NCBI GenBank assembly: GCA_043820105.1
Contig: JBDREC010000004.1
Location: 5,682-69,681, forward strand
Reading direction: 5' to 3'
DNA from: Pseudomonadota bacterium
GTDB lineage: Bacteria; Bdellovibrionota_F; JAHFAK01; JBDREC01
DNA length: 64,000 nucleotides
The notes under the pieces are model-generated. The model did no database searches, was not told where the DNA came from, and saw nothing but the letters and a program-made list of their open reading frames with translations. This document shows, piece after piece, positions 8,484-57,541 of the stretch (its first letter is position 1; each line of letters begins with the position of its first letter). The position numbers and the translations under genes were made by a program.

Positions 8484-9505
8484 TTTTCTAAATAAAAGTC
8501 ATATATTTTTTTTACACCCGTTTCGTCAAAATCTTTATTAAAAATCATAATTTCATCAATAATACCGTAATAATGATCACCTAAACTTTCAAGACTTGCT
8601 ACATAATCTTCTTTAAAAACAGGACTACAGGCTTCATTGTCATTAATTAAAGATATGTCCTCTTGTCTGTTTTCAATTAATTCTCCGTTTAAAAAAAATG
8701 AAACTTCGAGGATATTTTCAGATATTGCTTTGACGCTAATTCCAACAAACTGAAATGTGTTTTTTTCAAAAGAATAATATGCATCTGTGTTTATATTTAA
8801 ACCACAGCCTTCTATTGATCCCAAATCAAGTCCTGGTCTAAATGATGGAAGGATGTTGCTGTTTTCATCTTGTTCTAAAGCAGCGATAAAAGAAAATGAT
8901 CCACCTCGAATAATTGTTTGTAGATTGTTTAAAATCCTTGTTTCAGTATCCAGACTAATCCACGCAAAGAAAGAAGCACTATCACCAAGCTTAAGACTGT
9001 TGCCAGTATTGCCGTTTACATCATGCATGATTTTTAAAGGATCTGTAAATCCATTTAAATAATAACATTCTCCGCTTGGGCATCTAGAGTTATCTTCAAT
9101 ATATTCATTATGATTTTCAAGATCAACCATTTCACCATATTCTTCAGTGTGCCATGTATGTGTATGGTCAGAAACCCCTATACTGCAGCCATTATGAAAG
9201 TAAAAAGTAAAATCAGTGTCCGCTGTATCATAATTTGGATCTGTTTTTACATACATGGAGTCTTCATAGGAGGTTCGCTTATCAAGATCAAATGAATAAT
9301 ATTCAATGAGTCCATCAACAAGGCCACATCCAATTTCAAATTGTTCACTGGTATCTTGGAGATTGCTTGATGAGCCAAATGGATTGTCTAAATTGCTTGA
9401 GCTACATGATTCTTCGTTGTTAAGCAAAAGTAAAAGTCCATTGGCATAAAGATAAAATGGAAGCAGTAAAAAAAGCGTGATTTTGATGCAGAATTTCATT
9501 TGCAC
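8480..9505 (-). CDS. Secreted LamG/concanavalin A-like domain protein
   Basis: Signal peptide MQMKFCIKITLFLLLPFYLYANG. LKLGDSASFFAWISLD...NTFQFVGISVK...VSFFLNGELIEN is a LamG-like fold signature. Confidence 0.65.
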   Translation of the reverse strand: MQMKFCIKITLFLLLPFYLYANGLLLLLNNEESCSSSNLDNPFGSSSNLQDTSEQFEIGCGLVDGLIEYYSFDLDKRTSYEDSMYVKTDPNYDTADTDFTFYFHNGCSIGVSDHTHTWHTEEYGEMVDLENHNEYIEDNSRCPSGECYYLNGFTDPLKIMHDVNGNTGNSLKLGDSASFFAWISLDTETRILNNLQTIIRGGSFSFIAALEQDENSNILPSFRPGLDLGSIEGCGLNINTDAYYSFEKNTFQFVGISVKAISENILEVSFFLNGELIENRQEDISLINDNEACSPVFKEDYVASLESLGDHYYGIIDEIMIFNKDFDETGVKKIYDFYLEN

Positions 9506-9794
9506 TCCGTATAAAATGTTTTGTGTAATTAATAACTTACAAGAATAATATATGCTTTTTGAATTCGGTTTTAAGTTTTATAACAAAGATTTTTAATAAT
9601 GTCAAATCATCAAAAAGTCAAAAAGTTGGCAGCCAACGTTCAATCCAAAATGGCTCACTCATTTTTAAGCTCATTCACACTTGACCTTTTATATGAAACT
9701 GATAATAAGCAAAATGCTGCAGACAAAAGCCTTAAGTTGTTAGCTGAAGGCTGATCGCTGAAAGCTGATTGCTTATTACTAATAGGTGCTAAAT

Positions 9795-10742
9795 ATGAAA
9801 AATATTCTTGTAATGGGTGCTTCTGGTCAAATTGGTTCAGAATTAACTTGTGCTCTTAGAAAAGAGTATGGTGATTCAAATGTTGTTGCTTCTGATATTA
9901 AAAAAGGTTTATGGGCAAATGCTTGCGATGAAGGACCCTTTGAATATCTAAATGCAACAGAAGGCGAAAAGATTCTAGATGTTGTAAAGAAATACAATAT
10001 CGATACTATTTTCAATCTTGTTGCCTTGTTATCAGCAACAGCAGAAGAAAAACCTCAACTTGCCTGGGATATCAATGTTGGTTCACTTGTTAAAATTTTA
10101 GAAATAGCCAGAGAAAATAATTGTGCAGTTTTTACTCCAAGTTCAATTGGTGCCTTTGGACCTAGTACTCCTAAAGATAAAACCCCACAGCTTACAATTC
10201 AAAGACCAAGCACTATTTATGGTGTAACTAAAGTTTCAGGAGAGCTGCTTTGTGATTATTATTACCAAAAATTTGGAGTTGATACCAGAGGTTTAAGATA
10301 TCCTGGCATTATCTCAAATGTTGCTTTACCTGGCGGTGGAACCACTGATTACGCTGTACATATTTATTATGAAGCTATAAAGAATAAAAAATATACATCC
10401 TTTATTGATAAAGGAACTTTCATTGATATGATGTATATGCCTGATGCATGTCGTGCTGCAATGGAGCTTATGGAAGCAGACCCAGTAAAACTTAATCACA
10501 GGAATGCATACAATGTTACAGCAATGAGTTTTGAGCCAGAAATGCTAGCTAGAGAAATTAAAAAACATATTCCAGATTTTGTGCTTTCATATAACGTTGA
10601 TCCCATAAGACAGAGAATCGCTAATTCTTGGCCTGATAGTATTGATGATACTGCTGCAAAAGAAGATTGGGGATGGAAGGCTGAATTTGATCTTATTAAG
10701 ATGACAGAAGATATGATTAGAGTGTTGAAGGAAAAGTTATAA
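9795..10742 (+). CDS. tdh: NAD-dependent epimerase/dehydratase family protein, probable SDR-type L-threonine 3-dehydrogenase
   Basis: Rossmann motif VMGASGQIGSEL. Catalytic YGVTKVSGELLCDYYYQKFGVDTRGLRYPGIIS. kbl lies three genes downstream. ATG at 9795 with AGGTG RBS preferred over the GTG at 9786. Confidence 0.55.
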   Translation: MKNILVMGASGQIGSELTCALRKEYGDSNVVASDIKKGLWANACDEGPFEYLNATEGEKILDVVKKYNIDTIFNLVALLSATAEEKPQLAWDINVGSLVKILEIARENNCAVFTPSSIGAFGPSTPKDKTPQLTIQRPSTIYGVTKVSGELLCDYYYQKFGVDTRGLRYPGIISNVALPGGGTTDYAVHIYYEAIKNKKYTSFIDKGTFIDMMYMPDACRAAMELMEADPVKLNHRNAYNVTAMSFEPEMLAREIKKHIPDFVLSYNVDPIRQRIANSWPDSIDDTAAKEDWGWKAEFDLIKMTEDMIRVLKEKL

Positions 10743-10746
10743 GAAT

Positions 10747-10774
10747 CGTACAGCGTACAGTGTACAGCGTACGG
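10747..10774. repeat. Tandem heptamer array (CGTACAG)x4, degenerate, immediately 3' of the tdh stop codon
   Basis: cgtacag cgtacag tgtacag cgtacgg read directly from the sequence. Confidence 0.8.
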
Positions 10775-10799
10775 CGTGAAATTTATATGAGGTGAATTT

Positions 10800-11174
10800 G
10801 TGATTTTTGGTATTGGTGTTGATATAATTGAGGTAAGTAGGCTTGATAAAGAAGCTAAGATATCTGATAACTTCTTTAGTCGTGTTTTTACTGAAAAAGA
10901 AATTGAATATTGTGAGTCTAAGAAGTTTTCAGCTCAGCATTATGCTGGTAGATTTGCGGCTAAAGAAGCTTTTTTTAAAGCATTAGGGACAGGCTTAAGG
11001 GATGGATTGACCTGGAAAGATGTAGAGCTCACTAATGATGAACTTGGAAAACCAAGTCTATGTTTTTCAGGAAGAGCAAAAGAAATTATTAAAGAAAAAA
11101 ATATTAAAAATGCGCAAGTATCTTTGTCACATATAAAGAAGCTTGCTAAGGCATTTGTTATACTGGAGACTTAG
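10800..11174 (+). CDS. acpS: Holo-[acyl-carrier-protein] synthase (4'-phosphopantetheinyl transferase)
   Basis: MIFGIGVDIIEVSRL...FSAQHYAGRFAAKEAFFKALGTG is the canonical AcpS signature. GTG start with GAGGTGA RBS. Confidence 0.8.
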   Translation: MIFGIGVDIIEVSRLDKEAKISDNFFSRVFTEKEIEYCESKKFSAQHYAGRFAAKEAFFKALGTGLRDGLTWKDVELTNDELGKPSLCFSGRAKEIIKEKNIKNAQVSLSHIKKLAKAFVILET

Positions 11175-11285
11175 TTATAAGTTGTAAGTCGTAAGTCGTA
11201 AGTCATAAGTCGTAAGTCATAAGTCGTAAGTCGTAAGACATAAGACATTCTTACCACTTATAGCTTACCACTTACCACTTACCAC
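11175..11285. repeat. Inverted pair of heptamer arrays: (GTCGTAA/GTCATAA)x10 followed by (TTACCAC)x5
   Basis: Directly visible. Core GTAAG in arm 1 is complementary to CTTAC in arm 2, giving a periodic 5-bp-helix hairpin. Sits between the acpS stop and the RBS of the acs-like gene. Confidence 0.85.
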
Positions 11286-11304
11286 TTGCTCCAAAGGAGA
11301 CAAC

Positions 11305-13008
11305 ATGAACAATATTGGATCTTATGATGAAAAAGCTAGAGACTTTAATTGGTCAGATTCAGAAAAAGAGCTTGGTTATAAAGATGGTGATGTGATTAAT
11401 ATTGGATGGTATTGTACAGACAGAATTTGCGAAATGGGAAAAGCTGACAAGCTTGCTTTGATTTGGGAAGGAATGACTGGCGAAGAAAAAAAATTTACAT
11501 TTAATGATATTCGCATGGCCAGTAATACTATTGGAAACTACTTAAGAAACTTAGGAGTTGAATCAGGTGAAAGAGTTTGTTTATTCATGGACAAAGTTCC
11601 TGAGCTATATCTTGGCTTTTTGGGGGTTTTAAAAATAGGAGCGATTGCTCAACCTTTATTTTCAGCCTTTGGCGATGAATCACTGCATGTTAGACTTTCA
11701 AACGCTGAAACTTCTGTTGTTGTAACTCAACAAAAACATGTTAATAAGGTTAGAAAGATTCGAGATACTCTTCCATCATTAAAGCATATTATTATTGTTG
11801 ATTATAATGGAAAAAAACCTCTTCAAGAAAAAGAACATGCATTCTTTTTAGGAAATGAAACTCCAGTTGATAAATTTGATATTTTTAAAAGCAAAGCAGA
11901 AACTCCTTCTGTTTTACATTATACTTCAGGAACCACGGGTCAACCAAAGGGTGTTAAGCATGTTCATTATTCATTAATTTCTCAATATATTACAGCTAAA
12001 TGGATTCTTGATATTCAGGAAGATGATATTTATTGGTGCACAGCTGATCCTGGCTGGGTTACTGGAACTTCTTATGGAATAATTGGTGCCTGGTCAAATG
12101 GTGTTACTCAATGCGTGCTTGATAAAGGGTTTTCAGCTGAAAACTGGTATTCTTTCATGGAAAAACATAAAGTAACAAATTGGTATTCAGCTCCAACAGC
12201 CATTAGATCCCTTATGAAAGCAGGAATTGGGGCTGTAAAGAAATTTGATTTATCATCATTAAGACATCTAACATCAGTCGGTGAGCCTTTAAATGCTGAA
12301 GCTGTGGTTTGGTCAAAAGAAGCTTTTGGCAAAGCTTTTCATGATACTTACTGGCAAACAGAAACAGGTTCAATAATGGTAGCTAACTATCCTGGAATGG
12401 AAGTTAAGCCAGGCTCCATGGGAAAACCTTTTCCTGGAATAATTGGTGCGATTTTAGATGAAGAAACATATGAGCCAATTACTGAAGTAAATAAAATCGG
12501 AGCAATTGCTTTTAAACCAGGCTGGCCAGCAATGATGAGAACCTATTGGAACAATGAAGAAACATATCAAAAGAAATTTAAAAATGGTTGGTATCTAACT
12601 GGCGATAGATCTACTGTTGATAAAGATGGATACTTCTGGTTCACAGGACGCGATGATGATGTTATTAATACAGCAGGTCACTTAGTGTCGCCTTTTGAAG
12701 TTGAATCTGCCCTCTTAGAGCATGAAGCTGTAGCTGAGTCAGCAGTAGTAGCAAAACCAGATGATGTTAACATGGAAGTTGTTAAAGCCTTTGTAAGCTT
12801 AAAACCAGGCTTTGAACCAGATAAAGACTTAGAATTAAAAATCATGAATTTTATTAGAAAGAAACTATCACCTCTTGCAATGCCTCAAGAGATTGAATAT
12901 ATGGACAAGCTTCCAAAAACAAGGTCTGGTAAGATTATGAGAAGACTTTTAAAAGCACGGGAATGGGGTGAAGAAATTGGTGATACATCAACTTTAGAAG
13001 ATGATTAG
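11305..13008 (+). CDS. Acetyl-CoA synthetase family AMP-forming acyl-CoA (or acyl-ACP) ligase
   Basis: YTSGTTGQPKGV, IYWCTADPGWVTGTSY, YWQTETGS and C-terminal LPKTRSGKIMRRLLK...GDTSTLED closely track Acs-type enzymes. The protein is shorter than E. coli Acs at the N-terminus. Confidence 0.75.
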   Translation: MNNIGSYDEKARDFNWSDSEKELGYKDGDVINIGWYCTDRICEMGKADKLALIWEGMTGEEKKFTFNDIRMASNTIGNYLRNLGVESGERVCLFMDKVPELYLGFLGVLKIGAIAQPLFSAFGDESLHVRLSNAETSVVVTQQKHVNKVRKIRDTLPSLKHIIIVDYNGKKPLQEKEHAFFLGNETPVDKFDIFKSKAETPSVLHYTSGTTGQPKGVKHVHYSLISQYITAKWILDIQEDDIYWCTADPGWVTGTSYGIIGAWSNGVTQCVLDKGFSAENWYSFMEKHKVTNWYSAPTAIRSLMKAGIGAVKKFDLSSLRHLTSVGEPLNAEAVVWSKEAFGKAFHDTYWQTETGSIMVANYPGMEVKPGSMGKPFPGIIGAILDEETYEPITEVNKIGAIAFKPGWPAMMRTYWNNEETYQKKFKNGWYLTGDRSTVDKDGYFWFTGRDDDVINTAGHLVSPFEVESALLEHEAVAESAVVAKPDDVNMEVVKAFVSLKPGFEPDKDLELKIMNFIRKKLSPLAMPQEIEYMDKLPKTRSGKIMRRLLKAREWGEEIGDTSTLEDD

Positions 13009-13029
13009 AAATTAACAAAGGAGAACAAA

Positions 13030-13278
13030 ATGGATGAAATGAAAAAAGTTATATTAGACTATGTTTATGAAGAATATGTTGAAGATGAAGATGATGAAGT
13101 AACATATGATACTCCACTTATTTCAGGAGGCCTCGTTGACTCATTTTCAATGGTTTCATTAAAAAGATTTTTAGAAAATAAATATAACATCTCAATTCCA
13201 GATGAAGATGCTACCCCTGAGGCTTTTGATTCTGTTGATAAGATTTGTGTTTTAGTTAATAGATTTATTAATAAATAG
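13030..13278 (+). CDS. Acyl carrier protein-like (phosphopantetheine attachment)
   Basis: 82 aa, acidic, with GGLVDSFSMVSLKRFLE carrying the DS(L/F) Ser motif. Adjacent to an AMP-ligase, and acpS is nearby. Confidence 0.55.
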   Translation: MDEMKKVILDYVYEEYVEDEDDEVTYDTPLISGGLVDSFSMVSLKRFLENKYNISIPDEDATPEAFDSVDKICVLVNRFINK

Positions 13279-13340
13279 CTGTAAGCTGTAAGCTGTAAGC
13301 TGTAAGCTTTTCTTACCACTTACCACTTACTACTTACCAC
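13279..13340. repeat. Composite heptamer element (CTGTAAG)x4 + (TTACCAC)x4
   Basis: Directly visible after the ACP stop codon. The reverse complement of this element recurs at 28691-28754. Confidence 0.85.
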
Positions 13341-13360
13341 TTTTATCTCGGAGAGATATA

Positions 13361-14608
13361 ATGGCTTATACTGATGATATAAAAAAGGGTTACAAAGACG
13401 AACTTCAGGGCATAGCAGATGCAGGTCTTTTCAAAAGTGAACGCTTTATTCATGCAGCTCAAGATGCAGACATTGAAGTTGAATTTCCAGCTGGCGCGCC
13501 TATTAAAAAAGTTATAAATATGTGCGCGAATAACTATCTTGGTTTTTCAAGTGATCCTGAGATTGTTCAGGCTGCTCATAATGGTCTTGAAACAAGAGGT
13601 TATGGAATGAGCTCAGTTCGTTTTATTTGTGGAACTCAAGATATTCACAGAGAACTTGAACAAAAGGTTTCTGAATTTTTAGGCTGTGAAGACACAATAT
13701 TATTTCCATCCTGTATGGATGCTAATGCTGGTGTTTTTGAAGCTACTTTAGATGAACAAGATGTTATTATTTCAGATAGACTTGTGCATGCTTCTATCAT
13801 TGATGGCATAAGACTTGCCCCAGCTATGCATGATACTTTTAAACATTCCAATATGGAACATCTTGAAAGTAAATTACAACTGCATGCTGACAAAAGAAGA
13901 AAAGTGATCGTAACTGATGGTGTTTTCTCAATGGATGGTGATTGTGCTAAAATGGATGAAATCGTTGCACTTGGTGAAAAATATGGAGCTTTAGTTTTTT
14001 CTGATGAATCACATTCAACTGGTTTTATCGGCAAAACAGGAAAAGGTGTGCATGAAAAATGTGGTGTAATGGGCAAGATGGATATTATTACAACTACCTT
14101 TGGTAAAGCAATGGGCGGAGCAAGCGGCGGTTGTGTTTCAGGCAGACGTGAAATCGTTGAAATGTGTCGTCAAAAAGCAAGGCCTTATCTTTTCTCAAAT
14201 GCCATGGCTCCTGTAATTATTCAAGGTGTTTTAAAGGTTTTTGAAATTCTATCAGGTTCAACTGAAAGAAGAGATAAGCTGGAATGGAATGCAAATTATT
14301 GGAGACAAGGTCTAACGGATGCTGGCTTTGTATTAAAAGATGGAGATACTCCAATTGTTCCTGTTATGCTTTTTAATGCCAAGCTTTCTCAAGATTTCTC
14401 AATTGGTTTGTATGAAGAAGGAATTTATGCAATTGGATTTTTCTTTCCTGTTGTTCCAAAAGGACAAGCGAGAATCAGAACCCAGCTTTCAGCAGCTCAT
14501 ACAAAAGAGCATCTTGATAAAGCACTTGATGCATTTATTAAGGTGGGTAAAAAATATGAGATCCTAGGAAAAACCAAACAAGAAATCATTGAAATGTATG
14601 GAATGTAA
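13361..14608 (+). CDS. kbl: Glycine C-acetyltransferase (2-amino-3-ketobutyrate CoA ligase), alpha-oxoamine synthase family
   Basis: GLFKSERFI, SVRFICGTQDIHRELEQK, ASIIDGIRL, TDGVFSMDGD and GFFFPVVPKGQARIRTQLSAAHT are near-identical to conserved E. coli Kbl blocks. PLP-Lys region TTTFGKAMGGASGG. Confidence 0.8.
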   Translation: MAYTDDIKKGYKDELQGIADAGLFKSERFIHAAQDADIEVEFPAGAPIKKVINMCANNYLGFSSDPEIVQAAHNGLETRGYGMSSVRFICGTQDIHRELEQKVSEFLGCEDTILFPSCMDANAGVFEATLDEQDVIISDRLVHASIIDGIRLAPAMHDTFKHSNMEHLESKLQLHADKRRKVIVTDGVFSMDGDCAKMDEIVALGEKYGALVFSDESHSTGFIGKTGKGVHEKCGVMGKMDIITTTFGKAMGGASGGCVSGRREIVEMCRQKARPYLFSNAMAPVIIQGVLKVFEILSGSTERRDKLEWNANYWRQGLTDAGFVLKDGDTPIVPVMLFNAKLSQDFSIGLYEEGIYAIGFFFPVVPKGQARIRTQLSAAHTKEHLDKALDAFIKVGKKYEILGKTKQEIIEMYGM

Positions 14609-14726
14609 TCATATATCAGTATTATAATAAAACTCTTTTTTTAATTCCTAAAATCTGCTATAATAGAATTAATCTAAACTTTTAAAACTTTGATAATAAT
14701 AATGAAACCCTTTGGAGGGGGAGTAA

Positions 14727-17009
14727 ATGAAGGCTGTTTTTCAATCATTAATTATTCCATTTGTTCTATTATTCTATCTACTTAGCTGTTCTGCTACTTT
14801 GAAGAATACAGATGATTCACCAGGAGATGAGTCAATTGGCATTTCTGACAATGATGACAGTACAATTGGTGATGATTTAAGTTTAAGTGATGAAAATTCT
14901 TCGGAAAATTTGGAAAGCTCTGATGCAAGCAATTTAGCTGATTCAAGTCTTTCTGCAGGGCAAAGCAATGCAAGTGCTCAGAATGTTTTGGCTTTTTCAG
15001 GGAGTCTTTCCCTTGATGGTATAATTTCAAGAAATGATACTGCAAATATTATAAGCAGAACTGATGTTATAAGTGCTGGTATTACTGTAAGTTCAGCCTA
15101 TAAGGGATTCAATAATTTTAAGTTTTCATCAAGTGCAGAAACTTATGTATTTAAAATTGTTTTAACATTAAATAACCTTGATGAAGGTGAAGTTAATTCT
15201 TATACAACTTACACAACATCAAGTGGGATTTTTAGTGCAAGTGCTGATATTGATTCACTTGGTGATAACACTATTGCAATTTTAGCAGTATATTTTCCGC
15301 AAGAAAGTACAACAGGAGAAATAGAATGGATTTTGCTTGATTATGTTGTTGAACAGGATGAGCTAGCCCTGGTCAATATTTCTGATGAACTTATAGAAGC
15401 GAATTCAACAGTGGATTATGGGACAATATCAAATTCTACGAATGAAAATGGACAGGACATTTTGCAAACCTCAGGAATTATTATTGATGATGAATTAGAG
15501 TTTATGGCTAATAATGGACCCAACTGGCTTTCTAACACCGATATCCGTATTCATCATACTGTTTTTGCTGATGAAACCTTTGAGTATAATATGTCAACTT
15601 TTGCTTTGGATTTGGATGAAAATTTATTTGGTGTTTTTGGTGAATCATGGCTTACAATAGCTGAAAGTGATACTATTGCAGGCAAAGCAATATTAACAGC
15701 TGCTCCACCCACAAGTGCCTCTGGGACATATAAAGCAAAGGTCTGGGTAAAGGATCCCTCTGACAATATTAATCAAACAAACAGAAAATTTCATGTTGCC
15801 AAGAAATGGGATTTTGATAGTTCAACACAGTGTGTTCCTGAAATAGCGTCAGATCCAACTACCCAGTTTAAAAACAATGCATCTTCATATATGCGAATTA
15901 ATAAATATTATACAGGTATGTTACTGGCTTGGAGCTCAAATTTTGGTAATCAAGGCAAATATCAGACAGTAGCCTTAGGAGTAAATAAATATTGCAGCTT
16001 AATGACAGATGGAATCATAAAATTAAAAGCAGATGCTACTTATGACTATGAGCTGATGTATTTAGATACTTATCAAAACCAAGCTCAAGATAAAAACCAT
16101 GTTTTGGCAGTTTCAAAAATAACTTTTGACTTTGGGATAAAGGGGCTGCATTGGGCGATTTACGATTTTGATAGTATCAGTAATGGACAGGCAGAAATTT
16201 TAGTTGAAAATAGTTACATGCTGGAGGAAGGAGATAGTCTTTGGAATCCTAATGGAGGCTCAAATATTAATGGCGAAGGTATTTTTTGTTGGCCTGAAAC
16301 CAATGATGGTTTAACATCTAATAAGTATCTTACCTATAATTTAAGACAGCCTGAATTTTATTCGAGCACCAGAACCTTTGATTTTGATGATACTCCGACT
16401 CCTTTAAAGGTAAACTGTACCAAGTTGCTTTCAGATCAATATGCCTTTGTTGGTGGGGCATCTGATAATATTACTATTTTTTCATTGAGCGCAGAAGACG
16501 GCACTTTGCAAGTGGATTCACAAACGCAAATAGATCCCTCTGGAAATCATAATAGCGGAATAACCATGAGCTCTGTATATGATGGCAATCATTTAGCAAT
16601 AAATTATTTTATTCAAAACGATGCTGAACAGCATCTTTATGGATTTACAATTAATAATTCAGGAGACATCGTAGCAGACAGAGTAAATCTTTTTCAGGAT
16701 AGTGGAATTCTGATCGGACAAAATAATGTTGATCCAATTTTTTCAAGTGGGAGTTCAAATGGCTTAATGGCTACAAGTTTTGCTATTGGAAGTGAAGATA
16801 TAGGTATGCTTTATTTAATGATGAGTTTAACTGACAACTATTCTTATGAGCCTGTTGGATTTCAGCTTTTTTACAATCCTGAGGCCAGCAACATTACTTC
16901 CTATTATCCTGCTCCTTTAATCTTGGCCAGTGGAGAAATTGTATTTTTCTATCAGTATCAGGCTGGGTCAAGCATTGGAAAACTATTTATTATTCCAACC
17001 AGTGACTAG
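14727..17009 (+). CDS. Large lipoprotein of unknown function, ISRND-motif family
   Basis: RBS GGAGGGGGAG. Lipobox LLSCSA. Acidic/Ser linker then GIISRNDTANIISRTDVIS. Confidence 0.6.
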   Translation: MKAVFQSLIIPFVLLFYLLSCSATLKNTDDSPGDESIGISDNDDSTIGDDLSLSDENSSENLESSDASNLADSSLSAGQSNASAQNVLAFSGSLSLDGIISRNDTANIISRTDVISAGITVSSAYKGFNNFKFSSSAETYVFKIVLTLNNLDEGEVNSYTTYTTSSGIFSASADIDSLGDNTIAILAVYFPQESTTGEIEWILLDYVVEQDELALVNISDELIEANSTVDYGTISNSTNENGQDILQTSGIIIDDELEFMANNGPNWLSNTDIRIHHTVFADETFEYNMSTFALDLDENLFGVFGESWLTIAESDTIAGKAILTAAPPTSASGTYKAKVWVKDPSDNINQTNRKFHVAKKWDFDSSTQCVPEIASDPTTQFKNNASSYMRINKYYTGMLLAWSSNFGNQGKYQTVALGVNKYCSLMTDGIIKLKADATYDYELMYLDTYQNQAQDKNHVLAVSKITFDFGIKGLHWAIYDFDSISNGQAEILVENSYMLEEGDSLWNPNGGSNINGEGIFCWPETNDGLTSNKYLTYNLRQPEFYSSTRTFDFDDTPTPLKVNCTKLLSDQYAFVGGASDNITIFSLSAEDGTLQVDSQTQIDPSGNHNSGITMSSVYDGNHLAINYFIQNDAEQHLYGFTINNSGDIVADRVNLFQDSGILIGQNNVDPIFSSGSSNGLMATSFAIGSEDIGMLYLMMSLTDNYSYEPVGFQLFYNPEASNITSYYPAPLILASGEIVFFYQYQAGSSIGKLFIIPTSD

Positions 17010-17096
17010 TCCATTCCTACTTTTCATTCAAATACTTGACATTATCTTTTAAGGGTACTTAAATTAAAAAATCTTATTTGCTTATGGAGTCAAGTT

Positions 17097-17858
17097 ATGC
17101 TTTTCAAATCAATAAAATATTTAATTTTAATTTTAATTTTTGCTCCTTTAGTTGTTAACGCCATGACAGCTGAAGAAATTATAAATAAAGCAAAAAGTGT
17201 CATGAATCAGGATACTTCAAAATCCAGAAGTAAAATGATAATAGTTACAGACAAAGGAAAAGAAAGGATTTTTATCTCAGATTCTTTTTCAAAAAATAAA
17301 GGTGAAAAAAATCTAATAATTTACGTTGAACCCAGCAGGGTCAAAGGACAAGCAGTATTAATGCTTAATAATGCTGATGATATTTGGACCTATTTTCCAA
17401 ACACTGGAAGAGTTCGAAAGATGGCAACACATGCAAAGAAAAGAAAAATGCAGGGATCGGATTTTTCTTATGAAGACATGGGTTCAGGTGATGGATTTTT
17501 AGAAATTTTTAATGCAAAAAGATTAGATGATGAACAAAAAGATGGGTATGATTGTTATAAACTCGAATTAACAAAGAAAAAAGACAAAGACACTTCTTAT
17601 TCAAAGGTTATGCTTTGGATAATTAAATCAAATTACTTGCCAGTTTTCATACAATACTTTGACGAAAAATCCCCGACTTTATTATTAAAAGAATTAACCT
17701 TAAGTGATATTAAAACAATTCAGGGAATCCCAACTCCAATGAAAATGAAGATGGAAAATAAATTAGATAATTCCAAAACAGAAATGGAAACAATCTCAAT
17801 TGAATACGGAGTGGAGCTCAGTGATAACATGTTCACAGAAAAAGGATTGAAAAAATGA
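17097..17858 (+). CDS. LolA-like outer membrane lipoprotein-sorting family protein, partner of the MMPL exporter
   Basis: Signal peptide. About 250 aa with a basic/aromatic-rich pattern. Placed directly upstream of DUF1302-like and MMPL genes, as in conserved RND-associated trios. Confidence 0.5.
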   Translation: MLFKSIKYLILILIFAPLVVNAMTAEEIINKAKSVMNQDTSKSRSKMIIVTDKGKERIFISDSFSKNKGEKNLIIYVEPSRVKGQAVLMLNNADDIWTYFPNTGRVRKMATHAKKRKMQGSDFSYEDMGSGDGFLEIFNAKRLDDEQKDGYDCYKLELTKKKDKDTSYSKVMLWIIKSNYLPVFIQYFDEKSPTLLLKELTLSDIKTIQGIPTPMKMKMENKLDNSKTEMETISIEYGVELSDNMFTEKGLKK

Positions 17859-19060
17859 TGAAAATCTTATTACAATTTATCAAAAATAGAATATTGTTCC
17901 CTTGTTTCCTTGTTCTCTTGTTCTCAATGTTGCATTCTGTTCAAGCTTACTCAACTGACTTAGACATCTACGGCTACTATGAACCACAATATCAGGGTTT
18001 TTATATAAATGATCAATACATACATTTGAATTCCAATAAACTAAGAGTTGACCTTCGATCACAACCCGTGGAATCAGTTGAGTTAAAAGCCAACTTTAAC
18101 TCAATCTTATATTTCGGACAAACCACTTGGAATATTCTAGATTATCTTCCTTCTAGTTTAACGTCATCCTTAAGTAATGAGCTTGCTGCAAATTTTGCAT
18201 TTGATTTTGAAAATCAATATTATCTTGATAATGTATATGCAAAATTTAAAACAGAATATATTGATGTTACAATTGGAAAGCAGCAAATAGCCTTTGGTTC
18301 AGGATATGCCTGGAATCCTATTGATACATTTAATCAAAAAGATGTTATGGATCCAACATATGAAAAAGCAGGTGTTAATGCAATTCGTTTAGAAGGAAAT
18401 ATTGGCACTCGTTTTTCATATGATCTAATGGTTTCACCTGCTGAAGATTTGACAGATTCAGGTAAATTGGCCAGGGCAAAAATATTTTTAGGCAGCTTTG
18501 ATTTTTCAGCTATGTATGTTGAGCAAGCTTGGACCTACACTGATTATTCAACTTTTACTGAAACAAGTTACTTGAGAAGATTAATTGGTGGTGATTTGTC
18601 AGGTGAGCTTTTAGGAGTTGGAATGCATGCAGAAGGTGGATATAGCATTTTAGTTGATGGTGATAATTTTTGGGAAGTTTTAGGTGGACTTGATTATACC
18701 TTTGATTTTGAAACAATGATAATGATTGAATATTATCATAATTCACAAGGAAAAACGAGTTCAGCTGATTACACATTAACTGATTGGATGCAGTATTACG
18801 CACAAGAGAAAAAGACAATCGCACAAGACCAAATATATTTTTATTTAAGTCATCCTCTTAGTGATTTTATTGAAGCAGGCTTATCTGTGATTTCGTGTAT
18901 AAATGATGCAAGCTTTATGGTAGTTCCTATGTTTACATATAGCATGCTAGAAAATGTTGATTTGAGTATGTTTATTGGGGCTAATATTGGTGAAACAGGT
19001 GACTTCTATGGAAGCTCAGCAGGTCAAGGTGGGTTTGTTAGGGCAAAGGTATATTTTTAA
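17855..19060 (+). CDS. Outer-membrane beta-barrel protein (DUF1302-like)
   Basis: Signal peptide. Alternating amphipathic beta-strand pattern. Terminal aromatic residue ...RAKVYF typical of OMPs. Overlaps the upstream gene by 4 nt. Confidence 0.5.
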   Translation: MMKILLQFIKNRILFPCFLVLLFSMLHSVQAYSTDLDIYGYYEPQYQGFYINDQYIHLNSNKLRVDLRSQPVESVELKANFNSILYFGQTTWNILDYLPSSLTSSLSNELAANFAFDFENQYYLDNVYAKFKTEYIDVTIGKQQIAFGSGYAWNPIDTFNQKDVMDPTYEKAGVNAIRLEGNIGTRFSYDLMVSPAEDLTDSGKLARAKIFLGSFDFSAMYVEQAWTYTDYSTFTETSYLRRLIGGDLSGELLGVGMHAEGGYSILVDGDNFWEVLGGLDYTFDFETMIMIEYYHNSQGKTSSADYTLTDWMQYYAQEKKTIAQDQIYFYLSHPLSDFIEAGLSVISCINDASFMVVPMFTYSMLENVDLSMFIGANIGETGDFYGSSAGQGGFVRAKVYF

Positions 19061-19080
19061 AACTTTGCAGTTTTAAAAAA

Positions 19081-19146
19081 GTATTCAGTATTTAGTATTC
19101 AGGAATTTATAAACTGACTGAATACCGAATACCAAATACTAAATAC
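19081..19146. repeat. Inverted heptamer arrays (GTATTCA)x3 ... (GAATACC/AAATACT)x4
   Basis: Directly visible between the DUF1302-like stop codon and the MMPL start codon. Confidence 0.85.
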
Positions 19147-19162
19147 CAAAATGGAGTTTTTT

Positions 19163-26224: not shown

Positions 26225-26293
26225 TTTTTGTCAAGAAAAAGAGTTTATTCTTTTATGGAAAGTTGATTAATATAGATTATTTATTATCCTAAA

Positions 26294-26330
26294 TTTTGAA
26301 TTTTGAATTTTGAATCTTGAATTTTGAATC
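26294..26330. repeat. Tandem heptamer array (TTTTGAA)x5
   Basis: Directly visible, immediately 3' of the transketolase-family stop codon. Confidence 0.85.
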
Positions 26331-28671: not shown

Positions 28672-28690
28672 GTAAATACTCCGTATTTAA

Positions 28691-28754
28691 GTGGTAAGTG
28701 GTAAGTGGTAAGTGGTAAGTGACAAAGCTTACAGCTTACAGCCTACAGCTTACG
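28691..28754. repeat. Composite heptamer element (GTGGTAA)x4 + (GCTTACA)x4, reverse complement of the element at 13279-13340
   Basis: Directly visible. Lies 20 nt upstream of the transketolase start codon, that is, in its 5'UTR. Confidence 0.85.
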
Positions 28755-28823: not shown

Positions 28824-28851
28824 GTATTTAGTATTCAGTATTCAGTATTCA
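28824..28851. repeat. Tandem heptamer array (GTATTCA)x4
   Basis: Directly visible. Confidence 0.85.
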
Positions 28852-28866
28852 GGATAGGAGATCCTT

Positions 28867-28959
28867 ATGAGGCGATTTAAAAAAATCTTAATCTTAATCC
28901 CAATCTTAATCATAATCCAAATCTCTATTTTATACGGATTGCCCAAAAAAGGTAGATAA
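28867..28959 (+). CDS. 30-aa mini-ORF encoding a signal-peptide-like sequence across an AATCTTA heptamer array
   Basis: TAGGAG RBS 6 nt upstream of ATG. Translation MRRFKKILILIPILIIIQISILYGLPKKGR. The ILILIPILIII stretch is encoded by the repeat tract. Confidence 0.3.
   Translation: MRRFKKILILIPILIIIQISILYGLPKKGR
28884..28925. repeat. Tandem heptamer array (AATCTTA)x6, degenerate, lying inside the mini-ORF
   Basis: Directly visible. The same unit recurs at 57507-57541. Confidence 0.8.
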
Positions 28960-30925: not shown

Positions 30926-30956
30926 AATTCAAAATTCAAGATTCAAAATTCAAAAT
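30926..30956. repeat. Tandem heptamer array (AATTCAA)x4
   Basis: Directly visible after the pilin stop codon. Inverted partner at 31114-31145. Confidence 0.85.
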
Positions 30957-31035
30957 TATAATATATAACCAAAATTGAACTAATTATCAGAAACTTATAA
31001 ATTATCCTAAAATATTAGTTGTTTATAAAAAATAT

Positions 31036-31113: not shown

Positions 31114-31145
31114 ATTTTGAATTTTGAATTTTGAATTTTGAATTA
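31114..31145. repeat. Tandem heptamer array (AATTTTG)x4 in the 5'UTR of the GntR gene
   Basis: Directly visible. Reverse complement of the AATTCAA/TTCAAAA family. Followed by AAGGAGGTGA RBS. Confidence 0.85.
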
Positions 31146-31156
31146 ATTATAAGGAG

Positions 31157-48279: not shown

Positions 48280-48441
48280 TTTATCTCCTTTGTAGAATTA
48301 TTAAGGTTCGTTTTTTTGAAGGGCGTAATTGAATAAACCATGCTCGAATCAATACATCATTATATAATAAGAAGAAAATCGATAGCAGTAATGTTTTTAG
48401 ATGACAAGAAAAATATTTAGCTGGTAGTTAGTAGTGGATAT

Positions 48442-48492
48442 GGAGGTAGCCTCTTCTCCCCTCCAATTAATTATTATTTATTAATTATTGGT
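48442..48492. repeat. Intergenic element: GGAGG...CCCCTCC hairpin plus AT-rich ATTAATTATTATTTATTAATT block
   Basis: Directly visible. The same 21-mer and the same G/C hairpin type recur at 52571-52684. Confidence 0.7.
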
Positions 48493-48811
48493 TATTAAAA
48501 AAAGAATTTCCAAAAATTAATAGAAATAAACTAAAAACTAAAAAGTCAAAACATAAACAATGTTAAATATATATAATTCAAGCGATCAGGAAATCCTTCA
48601 CCCCTTGTGCCAGTGAAATAGCGCACATAAGAAAGCATTGACATCGTTAATATGCACCAAGCTTGCCCTGTGATTAAAGGCAGAAAAACCTTACATAAAG
48701 TTGAAACTCAAGCCGTCCTAAAAGTGTCGAAATTGTGAAAAAAAAGTTACGGAATAAGTTCTTGATATTATTGAAATGTGACAAGGATGTGAAAAAAATA
48801 TGAAAAAGATG

Positions 48812-48840
48812 TTGACAAAATAAGTTTCTTTGCTTATAAG
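48812..48840 (+). promoter_or_regulatory. Near-consensus sigma70 promoter driving the ORF-free segment
   Basis: TTGACA (48812-48817), 17-nt spacer, TATAAG (48835-48840). Confidence 0.5.
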
Positions 48841-48846
48841 CTATCT

Positions 48847-52568: not shown

Positions 52569-52570
52569 TG

Positions 52571-52684
52571 GAGGGGCTTGTTTTCCCCCTAACATTAATT
52601 ATTATTTATTAATTGTTAATTATTAATTATTCAATGCTCTTCAAATAACCAATAATTAATAAATAATAATTAACAATTAATGTT
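52571..52684. repeat. Intergenic element: GAGGGG...CCCCT hairpin plus an approximately 95-bp AT-rich imperfect inverted repeat containing ATTAATTATTATTTATTAATT
   Basis: Directly visible. The arms aacattaattattatttattaattgttaatt and ccaataattaataaataataattaacaattaatgtt are near reverse complements. Confidence 0.7.
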
Positions 52685-52704
52685 AAGAGAAAGAAAATTG
52701 AACT

Positions 52705-55598: not shown

Positions 55599-55600
55599 AA

Positions 55601-55672
55601 GTATTCAGTATCTATTAGTCAGTATTTAGTGGTTTTTTTCTGAATACTGAATACCGAATACTAAATACCAAA
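55601..55672. repeat. Inverted heptamer arrays (GTATTCA-like)x4 ... T7 ... (TGAATAC/CGAATAC/TAAATAC)x4
   Basis: Directly visible between the BtpA stop codon and the psuK RBS. Same family as 19081-19146 and 28824-28851. Confidence 0.85.
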
Positions 55673-56561: not shown

Positions 56562-57478
56562 ATCTAAGCGAATTCCTTTATATTAACCCTAAAATAAAAG
56601 ATGCCATTCAAAATAATAAACCTGTAGTGGCTTTGGAATCAACAATTATAGCCCATGGAATGCCGTATCCTCAAAATCTTGAAACAGCTTTAATGCTTGA
56701 ATCTATAATTAAAGACACAGGATGTGTGCCTGCAACGATTGCTATCTTAGATGGCAGGATAGTTGTAGGTCTTTCTTTAGAAGAAGTTGAGAAAATTGCT
56801 CAAGGAAAAGACATTTTAAAGGTTTCAGCTGCTGATATTTCCTATGTTTTAGGAAAGGATTTGAGCGGAGCAACAACTGCTGGAGCAACAATGAAACTTG
56901 CTTGCTTAGCAGGAATAAGGGTTTTTGCAACAGGCGGAATAGGTGGAGTTCATAGGGGTGTTGAAAATACTTTTGATATTTCATCTGATTTGAAAACCAT
57001 CTCTGAAACTCCGATTATTACAGTTTCAGCTGGTGCGAAGGCCATTTTAGATCTTCCTAAAACCTTAGAACACTTAGAGACTTTGAATGTTTTAGTCCTG
57101 GGCTATCAAACAAATGAGTTTCCTGCTTTTTATTCAAGAGAGTCTGGCTTAAAATTAAATCACAGTGTAATTAAGGCATCTGAAATCGCTTCAATTTTTT
57201 CAGCCCAAAAAGCGATTAATGAAAATAGTGGAATCTTAGTAGCTAATCCAATTCCAGAAGAATTTGAAATTAAGGCAGAGCTTATTAATTCTGTTATTGA
57301 TAAGGCTATTTTAGAGGCAAAGAATCAAGGTGTTTCAGGAAAAGAACTAACTCCATTTTTACTAAAATATATTAAAGATAAAACAAGTGGTGAATCTTTA
57401 AAAGCGAATATTGAGCTTGTTAAGAATAATGTTAAGCTTGCTTGTGAAATCGCAAAGTTGCTGGTTGCTGGTTGCTAG
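56558..57478 (+). CDS. psuG: Pseudouridine-5'-phosphate glycosidase
   Basis: VVALESTIIAHGMPYPQN...VFATGGIGGVHRG is characteristic of PsuG/YeiN (IndA family). Confidence 0.8.
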   Translation: MNLSEFLYINPKIKDAIQNNKPVVALESTIIAHGMPYPQNLETALMLESIIKDTGCVPATIAILDGRIVVGLSLEEVEKIAQGKDILKVSAADISYVLGKDLSGATTAGATMKLACLAGIRVFATGGIGGVHRGVENTFDISSDLKTISETPIITVSAGAKAILDLPKTLEHLETLNVLVLGYQTNEFPAFYSRESGLKLNHSVIKASEIASIFSAQKAINENSGILVANPIPEEFEIKAELINSVIDKAILEAKNQGVSGKELTPFLLKYIKDKTSGESLKANIELVKNNVKLACEIAKLLVAGC

Positions 57479-57487
57479 TTGCTGGTA
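57457..57487. repeat. Tandem heptamer array (GTTGCTG)x4 overlapping the psuG 3' end
   Basis: gttgctg gttgctg gttgcta gttgctg. It encodes the C-terminal LLVAGC and contains the TAG stop. Confidence 0.8.
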
Positions 57488-57506
57488 TTATATCTGTCTT
57501 CTGAGT

Positions 57507-57541
57507 TCTTAACTCTTAAATCTTAAATCCTAATCCAATCC
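57507..57541. repeat. Tandem heptamer array (ATCTTAA)x5, degenerate
   Basis: Directly visible. Overlaps the 3' end of the minus-strand gene 57530-58258. Confidence 0.75.

What the first reader, a model, noticed from the sequence alone, without database searches (positions are those of the whole stretch)
10747..13340. Every intergenic gap of the tdh-kbl cluster carries hairpin-forming heptamer arrays; one is a dispersed composite element
After tdh there is (CGTACAG)x4. After acpS there is (GTCGTAA)x10 followed by (TTACCAC)x5. After the ACP there is (CTGTAAG)x4 followed by (TTACCAC)x4. The two arms pair through a GTAAG/CTTAC core with 2-nt mismatches every 7 nt, giving long segmented hairpins. 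The 62-bp element at 13279-13340 recurs as its reverse complement at 28691-28754 with only a few substitutions. It is therefore a dispersed REP/MITE-like element built from heptamer arrays. The position immediately after stop codons suggests terminator, attenuator or RNA-stability roles. Heptamer tandem repeats of this kind are known as STRRs in cyanobacteria, but this genome is not cyanobacterial.
Basis: seen in the sequence. Interest (0 to 1): 0.55.

Follow-up and report, generated by a model that had tools for sequence, protein, structure and literature searches.

The report
Paired heptamer repeat arrays between genes
The spacers between genes in this uncultured bacterium are filled with runs of 7-base repeats that often come in complementary pairs and fold into segmented hairpins; this kind of repeat is known from cyanobacteria and a few other groups, and its arms turn out to follow a strict orientation rule across many phyla.

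Summary
The arrays are real and far beyond chance. The window has 16 period-7 arrays against 0.05 in shuffles, and 15 of them are intergenic. The copy numbers, the GTAAG/CTTAC pairing and the reverse-complement copy at 28688-28753 are as described. "Every gap" is wrong: the 21-nt gap at 13009-13029 has no array, and the array after tdh is single-armed with a non-significant fold.

These are heptanucleotide satellite arrays of the STRR/LSSR type in a non-cyanobacterial MAG. They are specific to this lineage. Orthologous clusters and the closest available relatives lack them.

At least three composite families recur within 64 kb, so dispersal is supported. REP or MITE membership is not shown. 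A terminator role is not supported: there is no U tract, the stems are weak and AU-rich, and the arrays sit inside a conserved gene cluster that is probably one operon.

Across about 1.5 Mb of array-rich loci from many phyla, paired arrays almost always have the G-rich, stop-codon-bearing arm 5' and the C-rich, start-codon-free arm 3'. Single arrays follow the same rule relative to the neighbouring stop and start codons.

The best reading is slippage-born, copied filler DNA, filtered by translation signals. An RNA-level role in coupling or stability remains possible.

The parts
9741..9773 (+). Degenerate (AGCTGAN) x4.7 array. It ends about 10 nt before the AGGTG Shine-Dalgarno (SD) sequence of tdh, whose likely start is the ATG at 9795.
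   Evidence: period 7 and 14 rows
10747..10777 (+). (CGTACAG) x4.4 single array. It starts 4 nt after the tdh stop codon and has no partner arm.
   Evidence: the fold is not significant, z -1.3
11173..11248 (+). Family A variant, 5' arm: about 11 units of GTCGTAA, GTCATAA, GTTGTAA and GACATAA. It overlaps the acpS stop codon and carries TAA in every unit.
11250..11287 (+). Family A variant, 3' arm: (CTTACCA) x5.4. It ends 5 nt before the small CUCC-AAA-GGAG hairpin that contains the Shine-Dalgarno (SD) sequence of the ligase gene.
13277..13308 (+). Family A copy 1, 5' arm: (GCTGTAA) x4.6. The ACP stop codon TAG is part of the first unit.
13312..13342 (+). Family A copy 1, 3' arm: (CTTACCA) x4.4. 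It is followed by a small hairpin that contains the Shine-Dalgarno (SD) sequence (UAUCUC-GGA-GAGAUA) and by the kbl ATG at 13361.
28688..28753 (-). Family A copy 2, both arms. Read on the minus strand it is (GTAAGCT) x3.7, then TTTGTCA, then (CTTACCA) x4.9. It ends 16 nt upstream of the start of gene 26332-28671 and lies in a divergent gap.
   Evidence: folds
19080..19150 (+). Family B copy 1: (AGTATTC) x3.3, a 18-nt loop, then (GAATACC/AAATACT) x4.3. It fills the gap between the stop at 19060 and the ATG at 19151.
55599..55669 (+). Family B copy 2. It has the same outer ends as copy 1 (AAAAGTATTCAGTAT ... GAATACTAAATACCAAAAT) but an unrelated loop. It starts at the stop codon of gene 54792-55598.
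28824..28852 (+). Family B unit as a single array, (GTATTCA) x4.1. It is followed by an AGGAG and a 30-codon ORF.
26292..26329 (-). Family C single array. On the sense (minus) strand it reads (TTCAAAA) x5.4 and starts 2 nt after the stop of gene 26332-28671.
30926..30957 (+). Family C, first arm: (AATTCAA) x4.6, starting 1 nt after the stop of gene 30421-30924.
   Evidence: pairs I2 and I7, 92-96% complementary to 31114-31150
31114..31144 (+). Family C, second arm: (ATTTTGA) x4.4, lying 157 nt after the first arm and ending 6 nt before the AAGGAG of gene 31157. This AT-only pair is one of the two exceptions to the G-rich-arm-first rule; the other is one pair in the locus L151.
48429..48498 (+). 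Family D copy 1: a small GC-rich hairpin (GGAGG..CCTCC) followed by an (ATTAATT) array.
52569..52697 (+). Family D copy 2: a GGGG..CCCC hairpin directly after the stop of gene 50856-52568, then an (ATTAATT)n / (AATAATT)n inverted pair. This is the longest inverted repeat in the window.
   Evidence: (pair I1)
57457..57533 (.). (GTTGCTG) x4.3, which overlaps the 3' end and the stop codon of gene 56558-57478, followed by (TCTTAAA) x3.9. The two arrays are not complementary.

Best explanation
These are lineage-specific heptanucleotide satellite arrays of the same general class as cyanobacterial STRRs and the 'long simple sequence repeats' of prokaryotes.

Inferred origin: replication slippage of 7-nt units, followed by inverted duplication or copying of arrays into other spacers.

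Shown: the arrays occupy whatever part of a spacer is free, from the stop codon, which they often contain, to about 10 nt before the ribosome-binding site.

Shown as a pattern, with the cause inferred: what survives is filtered by translation signals. Units next to the end of an upstream ORF are G-rich and carry stop codons, so expansion there cannot extend the protein. Units next to a downstream ribosome-binding site are C-rich and free of ATG, GTG and SD-like purine runs, so they create no false starts. When the second array is the inverted copy of the first, the transcript folds into a segmented hairpin as a by-product.

The hairpins are read through rather than terminating transcription. 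Any effect on mRNA stability or translation is secondary and untested.
For: Enrichment and location:
- Period 7 alone is enriched, with 16 arrays against 0.05 in shuffles, and 15 of 16 are intergenic.
- The arrays make up 54-86% of the gaps they occupy in the cluster.

Lineage specificity:
- The same acpS-ligase-ACP-kbl cluster in three other organisms has 12-159-nt gaps with no heptamer arrays.
- A fourth organism has hexamer pairs in the same gaps instead.
- The closest relatives on record (70-73% identity in the transketolase-like protein) have no period-7 array in 22 kb each.

Copying:
- Families A, B and D recur with the same outer ends and the same order of variant units.

Not terminators:
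- No terminator-like site or U tract at any array.

Polarity:
- In other genomes the partner of (CTTACCA)n lies upstream in 23 loci and downstream in 0.
- Of 37 complementary adjacent pairs in 1.5 Mb, 35 have the G-richer arm 5'.
- After de-duplication to 33 pairs, 24 have stop codons only in the 5' arm and 2 only in the 3' arm. Only 1 of 33 has ATG or GTG in the 3' arm.
- The pairs fill spacers from -3..+16 nt after the stop to 0-18 nt before the start.
- Single arrays follow the same rule relative to genes. Nearer the stop they are G-rich 14 to C-rich 5. Nearer the start they are G-rich 2 to C-rich 16. Fisher p = 1.9e-4.

No privileged sequence:
- Same-composition control heptamers form arrays as often as CTTACCA in viral contigs: 3, 33 and 14 loci against 14.
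- 58 families were seen among 196 arrays in other genomes.
Against: - Complementarity of adjacent arms is far more frequent than chance. Seven of 9 adjacent pairs in the window are complementary at 5 or more of 7 positions, by my own count. So either an inverted-copy mechanism or selection for pairing is needed. Neither was shown.
- The ends of (CTTACCA)n arrays are phase-biased across phyla: 29 of 42 end in CCACT or CCACTT, p about 1e-6. Plain slippage does not predict this.
- The identical composites in this window could equally be moved by a dedicated enzyme encoded elsewhere in the genome.
- Only 64 kb of this genome was available.
- Gene calls in the other loci were crude ORF calls of my own.
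- No expression data exist.
Confidence: 0.5

Rival explanations
1. The paired arrays are functional intercistronic RNA stem-loops. One version: a ribosome terminating on the stop codon at the foot of the 5' arm melts the lower stem and frees the region just upstream of the next ribosome-binding site, giving translational coupling. Another version: the stem protects the upstream cistron from 3' exonucleases, as REP/BIME elements do.
For: - Geometry. The 5' arm overlaps or abuts the upstream stop, and the 3' arm ends 0-18 nt before the next start, in this window and in other phyla.
- The folds are well below shuffles, z -4.3 to -9.3.
- Each family A copy is followed by a small hairpin with the SD sequence in or next to its loop.
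- The polarity follows the direction of the genes.
Against: - The sense strand folds less well than the antisense strand in 6 of 6 elements, because the mismatches are C.A and U.C on the mRNA and G.U on the opposite strand.
- The SD sequence itself is outside the large stem.
- Many arrays are single-armed.
- The elements are absent from orthologous clusters and from the nearest relatives, so the genes do not need them.
- The copy at 28688-28753 has no upstream cistron.
Confidence: 0.2
2. The composites are non-autonomous mobile elements, REPIN-like or MITE-like, that are recognised as hairpins and moved by a transposase encoded elsewhere in the genome.
For: - Three composite families each have 2-3 copies in 64 kb, with conserved outer ends and phases.
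- Several loci in single other genomes carry the same hairpin.
- Array ends are phase-biased.
Against: - No target-site duplication at the 13279, 28691, 19078 or 55597 copies, judged by reading.
- Copies differ in unit number, and in family B the loop sequence is completely different.
- No transposase, RAYT or reverse transcriptase among the window's genes.
- The same architecture is built from many unrelated heptamers.
- The composite was not found in JGI metagenome contigs.
Confidence: 0.12
3. The arrays are multivalent binding sites for an RNA-binding or DNA-binding protein, such as S1, a cold-shock protein or a CsrA-like protein, that sets translation or transcription of the downstream gene. 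MacGregor proposed this for TAACTGA repeats, and Pradhan and co-workers proposed it for TTTTGAA repeats in Nostoc.
For: - The 3' arms end about 8-12 nt before the SD sequence in all cluster gaps.
- The window's family C unit, TTTTGAA/TTCAAAA, is the heptamer reported near start codons in Nostoc PCC 7120.
- The SD sequences after the family A copies sit in small GGA-loop hairpins that resemble CsrA sites (the resemblance is from my own knowledge of the CsrA consensus).
Against: - At least six unrelated heptamer families occur in 64 kb, and 58 were seen in other genomes. One binding protein cannot account for them.
- The downstream genes show no functional theme.
- No TAACTGA arrays occur here.
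- There is no binding evidence anywhere.
Confidence: 0.08
4. The G-first polarity reflects how the arrays are made. Either G-rich repeats are added to both 3' ends of a DNA break and the ends are then joined, or a G-rich nascent array snaps back and copies itself. Either route would give G-arm, junction, C-arm on both strands.
For: - 23:0 and 35:2 polarity of pairs.
- Variable, unrelated loops between conserved arms.
- Phase-biased outer ends.
Against: - Single arrays also obey a rule that depends on the direction of the neighbouring genes. A gene-blind repair process would not produce this.
- No candidate enzyme has been identified.
- The AT-only pair at 30926/31114 has the opposite sense.
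Confidence: 0.05
5. The hairpins are intrinsic terminators or attenuators placed after stop codons.
For: - The arrays start 0-4 nt after stop codons in the cluster.
- A T-rich stretch (CTTTTAT) follows the ACP-kbl element.
- Family D copy 2 does begin with a small GC-rich hairpin after a stop codon.
Against: - No terminator-like site at any array in 9400-19400.
- The helices are 5-6 bp, AU-rich and interrupted every 7 nt.
- There is no U tract after 11287, 19150 or 28688.
- The arrays interrupt a cluster that is tightly packed in other organisms.
- One copy lies upstream of a gene in a divergent gap.
Confidence: 0.03

Closest known systems
STRR (short tandemly repeated repetitive) heptanucleotide sequences of heterocyst-forming cyanobacteria (Mazel et al. 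1990, from my own knowledge; Vioque 1997, title seen in the reference list read)
   Same: - 7-nt units in tandem.
- Several unit families per genome.
- Many dispersed, mostly intergenic loci.
- From my memory of Vioque 1997, not re-read here: inverted STRR runs can lengthen an RNA helix, P12 of RNase P RNA.
   Different: - The host is not a cyanobacterium.
- The units differ from STRR1-3.
- Here the arrays mostly come as complementary pairs with a fixed polarity, and as recurring composites.
Intergenic TAACTGA heptamer direct repeats of marine Beggiatoaceae, some Cyanobacteria and Bacteroidetes (MacGregor 2015, PMC4679880)
   Same: - Heptamer arrays of 2-6 or more units in intergenic regions, often just upstream of start codons.
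- Sporadic phylogenetic distribution; absent from close relatives.
- Indels in 7-nt steps between strains.
- Mixed with other heptamers.
   Different: - No TAACTGA arrays in this window.
- That study found essentially direct repeats only, with one indirect repeat, and one dominant heptamer.
- Here there are many families, inverted pairs, and arrays that start on stop codons.
Long simple sequence repeats (LSSR) of prokaryotes, in which 7-nt units are the commonest long class (Mrazek et al. 2007, as summarised in PMC4679880)
   Same: - Period 7 is the only enriched period.
- The arrays lie outside coding regions.
- Array-rich genomes are scattered phylogenetically.
   Different: As far as the summary I could read goes, the LSSR survey describes abundance only. 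It does not describe paired arms, polarity or recurring composites.
TTTTGAA / TTCAAAA heptamer repeats near start codons and promoters in Nostoc PCC 7120 (Pradhan et al. 2022 preprint, doi 10.1101/2022.06.06.494920)
   Same: The same heptamer occurs at window 26292-26329, 30926-30957 and 31114-31144, next to stop and start codons. Deleting the repeats changed reporter output in that study.
   Different: The phylum is different. The authors give no evidence on mechanism beyond speculation about a binding protein or a secondary structure.
REP / BIME / REPIN extragenic palindromes of Proteobacteria (REPIN paper PMC3116915, listed but not read; the rest from my own knowledge)
   Same: - Dispersed intergenic imperfect palindromes.
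- Often located between genes of one operon.
- Able to form mRNA stem-loops that are read through.
   Different: - REPs are unique 20-40-nt sequences, not tandem 7-nt arrays.
- REPs have a conserved motif cut by a RAYT transposase. None was found here.

Membership tests
STRR / heptanucleotide LSSR arrays | Tandem head-to-tail repeats of a 7-nt unit, longer than chance allows | tested here: met
   16 arrays against 0.05 in shuffles; only period 7 is enriched
STRR / heptanucleotide LSSR arrays | The same unit recurs at several dispersed loci of one genome | tested here: met
   CTTACCA at 3 loci; AGTATTC/GAATACY at 3; TTTTGAA at 3; ATTAATT at 2, all within 64 kb. The rest of the genome was not available.
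STRR / heptanucleotide LSSR arrays | Predominantly intergenic location | tested here: met
   15 of 16 arrays are intergenic while 87% of the window is coding
STRR in the strict sense | The host is a heterocyst-forming cyanobacterium and the units are STRR1-3 (CCCCAGT, TTGGTCA, CAACAGT; unit sequences from my own knowledge) | tested here: not met
   The source is a MAG labelled Pseudomonadota bacterium. The nearest named homologues are from KSB1, Calditrichota and Acidobacteriota. None of these units is among the arrays.
TAACTGA repeat system (MacGregor 2015) | Direct repeats of TAACTGA upstream of start codons | tested here: not met
   0 matches to (TAACTGA)x2 with up to 2 mismatches
REP / REPIN | A unique imperfect palindrome with a conserved cleavage motif, plus a cognate RAYT (IS200/IS605-type) transposase in the genome | tested here: inconclusive
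   The arms are tandem arrays, not a unique sequence. There is no transposase among the window's genes. The rest of the genome could not be read.
MITE | Terminal inverted repeats flanked by a target-site duplication | tested here: not met
   The flanks of the two family A copies and the two family B copies share no direct repeat. Copies differ by whole 7-nt units and, in family B, by the whole loop.
MITE | A related autonomous insertion sequence in the same genome | not testable with these tools
   Only 64 kb of the MAG was available. The genome-contig scan returned no locus from it.
Intrinsic (Rho-independent) terminator | A GC-rich uninterrupted stem followed by a U tract | tested here: not met
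   No terminator-like site at any array. The stems are 5-6-bp AU-rich helices with mismatches every 7 nt. The exception is the small GGGG..CCCC hairpin at 52572-52593, which precedes the family D arrays and may itself be a terminator.
Phase-variable contingency repeats | A repeat tract inside an ORF or between promoter elements of surface or virulence genes, with unit number varying between strains | tested here: inconclusive
   The flanking genes are housekeeping or metabolic. No second strain was found, so variation could not be measured.

The most novel reading that the evidence does not exclude
Paired heptamer arrays are a widespread, so far undescribed, polar intergenic module found in at least ten phyla. 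Its form is: stop codon, then a G-rich arm carrying stop codons, a variable loop, a C-rich arm free of start codons, then the ribosome-binding site. Its fixed polarity and phase-defined ends would reflect either a dedicated way of making or copying such repeats, or a real role as a translational-coupling or mRNA-stability hairpin. On this reading it is not mere tolerated slippage.
Probability: 0.15. Interest if true: 0.75.

Novelty: new variant of a known kind. Interest (0 to 1): 0.48.

Why it matters
Heptamer arrays have been noted for 35 years in cyanobacteria, and more recently in giant sulfur bacteria and Bacteroidetes, without an accepted origin or function.

This window shows the same phenomenon in an unrelated, AT-rich uncultured bacterium. 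The comparison it prompted gives a simple rule that can be tested genome-wide. The G-rich arm with stop codons lies towards the upstream gene. The C-rich arm without start codons lies towards the downstream gene. This holds on both strands and for unrelated heptamers.

If the rule holds, it says which forces shape these repeats, and it makes the question 'filler or device?' testable with existing genomes and a few reporter constructs.

There are practical consequences too. Such arrays break short-read assemblies. They also shift predicted stop codons, create stops in all frames, and create false small ORFs.

Tried and rejected
- Exact look-up of the window's kbl protein and of its 100% database match found no contig on record. 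No further sequence of this MAG could be read.
- A scan of JGI metagenome contigs for the family A composite pattern gave 0 hits. Strain comparison was therefore impossible.
- None of the 110 genome-contig loci comes from the source genome.
- Rfam at gathering threshold, and tRNA and tmRNA scans of the whole window, found nothing.
- I tested whether CTTACCA is a privileged heptamer shared across phyla and rejected the idea. Same-composition permutations give 3, 33 and 14 loci in viral contigs, against 14 for CTTACCA. Other genomes show 58 families.
- I tested whether (CTTACCA)n has an overall strand preference relative to flanking genes and rejected the idea: 14 loci in sense against 16 in antisense. 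The real rule depends on position.
- A promoter reading was rejected. One TTACCA-17-TATAAT match at 13334-13362 overlaps the kbl ATG, and promoter-like sites are not enriched, 39 found against 40.9 expected.
- I considered that the cluster might be a mis-named sphingolipid-type (Spt/ACP) cassette and did not pursue it. The kbl and ligase proteins pass the NCBIfam equivalog cut-offs for glycine C-acetyltransferase and acetate-CoA ligase.
- Literature searches for a description of inverted, hairpin-forming heptamer arrays found none beyond the papers cited. Vioque 1997 is not held.

Full report
**1. What is in the sequence**

Tandem Repeats Finder and direct reading confirm the arrays:
- 10747-10777: (CGTACAG) x4.4.
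- 11173-11248: about 11 units of GTCGTAA, GTCATAA, GTTGTAA and GACATAA.
- 11250-11287: (CTTACCA) x5.4.
- 13277-13308: (AGCTGTA) x4.6, perfect.
- 13312-13342: (CTTACCA) x4.4.
- 28688-28753: the reverse complement of the last two.

- 9786-10742: an NAD-dependent epimerase-type dehydrogenase.
- 10800-11174: acpS.
- 11305-13008: an acetate-CoA-ligase-type AMP-binding enzyme.
- 13030-13278: a small acyl carrier protein.
- 13361-14608: kbl.

The acpS stop codon lies inside the first unit of the array that follows it, and so does the ACP stop codon. The tdh array starts 4 nt after the stop.

'Every gap' is not correct. The 21-nt ligase-ACP gap and the 118-nt gap after kbl have no array.

**2. More than chance, and a property of the whole window**

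With a uniform detector, period 7 gives 16 arrays against 0.05 in 20 dinucleotide-preserving shuffles. Periods 8-12 give none. Period 6 gives 4 against 0.5. Fifteen of the 16 period-7 arrays are intergenic, although 87% of the window is coding (a stricter scan gives 11 arrays against 0-3 for other periods). Twelve of 37 intergenic gaps carry arrays. The longest inverted repeats of the window are all heptamer pairs.

**3. Structure**

- 13270-13350: four 5-bp GUAAG/CUUAC helices separated by 2x2 loops, -20.5 kcal/mol, z -4.8.
- 11170-11300: 6-bp helices with single mismatches, -45.0 kcal/mol, z -9.3.

The tdh array alone does not fold better than shuffles (z -1.3).

In all six paired elements, the strand opposite to the flanking genes folds better than the mRNA strand. 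Examples are -30.3 against -20.5 kcal/mol, -27.6 against -18.8, and -39.9 against -29.5. This is because the mismatches are C.A and U.C on the sense strand and G.U on the other. The copy at 28688-28753 is inverted relative to the copy at 13277-13342, and so is its downstream gene. The asymmetry therefore follows the gene, not the replication strand. The six elements belong to only three families, so this evidence is weak.

No terminator-like site coincides with an array, and no U tract follows the stems.

Each family A copy is followed by a small hairpin that carries the SD sequence in or next to its loop.

**4. Dispersal**

The ACP-kbl element and the copy upstream of gene 26332-28671 are nearly identical. 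Their arrays end in the same phase, the loop differs by 3 nt, and there are single-unit variants. The composite pattern is never seen in shuffles.

Two more composites recur:
- Family B at 19078-19150 and 55597-55672. The outer ends and the order of variant units are the same, but the loops are unrelated.
- Family D at 48429-48498 and 52569-52640. Each is a small GC-rich hairpin followed by (ATTAATT)n.

The TTTTGAA/TTCAAAA unit occurs at three loci.

Copying of arrays between spacers is therefore supported. I saw no target-site duplications, and no transposase or reverse transcriptase is encoded in the window.

**5. The arrays belong to the lineage, not to the gene cluster**

The ligase and kbl proteins are about 80% identical to homologues in many phyla.

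In three other organisms, the acpS-ligase-ACP-kbl genes (ligase-ACP-kbl only in L114, where no acpS was called) are separated by 12-159 nt with ordinary SD sequences and no arrays (L111, L114, L115). In a fourth organism (L113), the same gaps hold hexamer pairs, (GGTTAA)n and (CCTTAA)n.

The closest relatives on record have 70-73% identity in the transketolase-like protein. Below that, identity drops to 63%, in Calditrichota and KSB1. These relatives have no period-7 array in 22 kb each.

The source is an NCBI MAG labelled 'Pseudomonadota bacterium' (MFH1726915.1, contig of 157,935 bp). Its phylum is not settled by what I could test, but nothing points to cyanobacteria.

**6. Other genomes**

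The hosts include Acidobacteriota, Bacteroidota, Gallionellaceae and Nitrosomonadales, Planctomycetota, a cyanobacterium, Bdellovibrio and others. The loci range from 32 to 67% G+C.

Many of these loci have a complementary (GTGGTAA)n arm upstream, which is the same hairpin architecture. These 775 kb hold 79 further exact heptamer arrays in 57 other families.

CTTACCA is not special. Same-composition permutations give 3, 33 and 14 loci in viral contigs, against 14 for CTTACCA.

**7. A polarity rule**

- Among 96 loci with enough flank, the complementary partner of (CTTACCA)n is upstream in 23 and downstream in 0. With a looser cut-off the counts are 30 and 1.
- Over all sequence held (1.5 Mb), 35 of 37 complementary adjacent period-7 pairs have the G-richer arm 5'. 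This includes pairs built from the control heptamers.
- After de-duplication to 33 pairs, the 5' arm has positive GC skew in 32. Stop codons occur only in the 5' arm in 24 pairs and only in the 3' arm in 2. ATG or GTG occurs in the 3' arm in 1 pair.

The reverse complement of 'G-arm, loop, C-arm' is the same arrangement. The rule therefore holds for transcripts of either strand.

The pairs fill spacers between co-directional genes. They run from -3..+16 nt after the stop to 0-18 nt before the start.

Single arrays obey the same rule relative to genes:

| Position of single array | G-rich on sense strand | C-rich on sense strand |
|---|---|---|
| Nearer the upstream stop | 14 | 5 |
| Nearer the downstream start | 2 | 16 |

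Fisher p = 1.9e-4, on de-duplicated arrays.

The window's families A and B follow the rule. The AT-only pair at 30926/31114 does not.

The ends of (CTTACCA)n arrays of 28 nt or more are phase-biased: 29 of 42 end in CCACT or CCACTT. I cannot explain this.

Caveats: gene calls in the other loci are my own crude ORF calls, and the loci were seeded with C-rich heptamers. Both strands were searched, so the seeding does not bias the polarity.

**8. Interpretation**

Shown:
- Enrichment and intergenic location of the arrays.
- Hairpin potential.
- Recurrence of composites.
- Absence from orthologous sites and from relatives.
- Absence of terminator features.
- The polarity.

Inferred:
- The arrays arise by slippage of 7-nt units. 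This is the explanation given for heptamer LSSRs by Mrazek et al., as summarised in PMC4679880.
- They are copied in inverted orientation and between spacers by an unknown route.
- They persist where they do not disturb translation. Stop-bearing units are tolerated at ORF ends. Units that are G-poor and free of start codons are tolerated before ribosome-binding sites.
- The hairpin is then a by-product.

I give this reading 0.5. The main rival, at 0.2, is a real RNA-level role in translational coupling or protection against exonucleases. It fits the geometry, but it is weakened by the weaker sense-strand folds, by the single arrays, and by the absence of the elements from relatives. I rate mobile-element, protein-binding, break-repair and terminator readings lower, for the reasons given under each.

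**9. Relation to what is known**

The class is known:
- STRR heptamers of cyanobacteria.
- The heptamer-dominated LSSRs of prokaryotes.
- The TAACTGA repeats of Beggiatoaceae, cyanobacteria and Bacteroidetes (PMC4679880).
- The TTTTGAA repeats of Nostoc 7120, which is the same heptamer as the window's family C.

Within the library I could search, I did not find any description of recurring inverted composites, of arrays that start on stop codons, or of the polarity rule. I therefore file this as a new variant of a known kind, with moderate interest.

Noticed in passing
window 48560-50212: About 1.65 kb has no ORF longer than 71 codons on either strand. It is purine-rich on the + strand (AT skew +0.14) and lies between two divergent genes. 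Rfam gives nothing above noise. It could be a large non-coding RNA, a decayed gene or a mis-assembled stretch.
   Followed up: partly
window 28867-28959 (+), with the hexamer array at 28883-28924: A 30-codon ORF (MRRFKKILILIPILIIIQISILYGLPKKGR) is preceded by AGGAG. Its hydrophobic core is encoded by an (AATCTT)n hexamer array. It could be a small membrane peptide made from a repeat, or a chance ORF.
   Followed up: no
window 9786-14608; loci L111, L113, L114, L115: The acpS, acetate-CoA-ligase-like, small ACP and kbl genes form a cassette. Its ligase and kbl proteins are about 77-82% identical across very distant phyla (KSB1, Acidobacteriota, Bacteroidota, Cloacimonadota, Delongbacteria). This is unusually high conservation for a cluster of unknown joint function. 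An ACP and a phosphopantetheinyl transferase next to kbl are not explained by threonine catabolism.
   Followed up: partly
window 13344-13358, 28675-28689 (minus strand), 11289-11299, 10779-10799: The SD sequences that follow arrays sit in or next to the loops of small hairpins: UAUCUC-GGA-GAGAUA, AAAUAC-GGA-GUAUUU and CUCC-AAA-GGAG. The first two have the same shape with different stem sequences and resemble CsrA-type GGA-loop sites. I did not test whether this is commoner than at other genes.
   Followed up: no
locus L113 1877-1949, 2998-3189, 5668-5868: Another organism (37% G+C) carries period-6 arrays in the same cluster gaps: (GGTTAA)n paired with (CCTTAA)n, and (GATCTT)n. So spacer-filling paired arrays are not restricted to period 7.
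   Followed up: partly
window 57457-57486: The stop codon of gene 56558-57478 lies inside a (GTTGCTG)n array, in a variant unit GTTGCTA that gives TAG. The array may have replaced the original 3' end of the gene.
   Followed up: no
window 19121-19165: The family B array runs right up to the ATG at 19151 of the HpnN-like RND transporter gene, leaving no SD sequence. A second ATG at 19163 has only a weak GGA upstream. This resembles the SD-less, repeat-preceded genes that MacGregor described.
   Followed up: partly
loci L001-L110: (CTTACCA)n arrays from many phyla begin and end in preferred phases. They start with ACTTACC or CACTTACC and end with CCACT or CCACTT. Partly degenerate neighbouring units such as CTCACCA explain some of the cases but not all.
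   Followed up: partly
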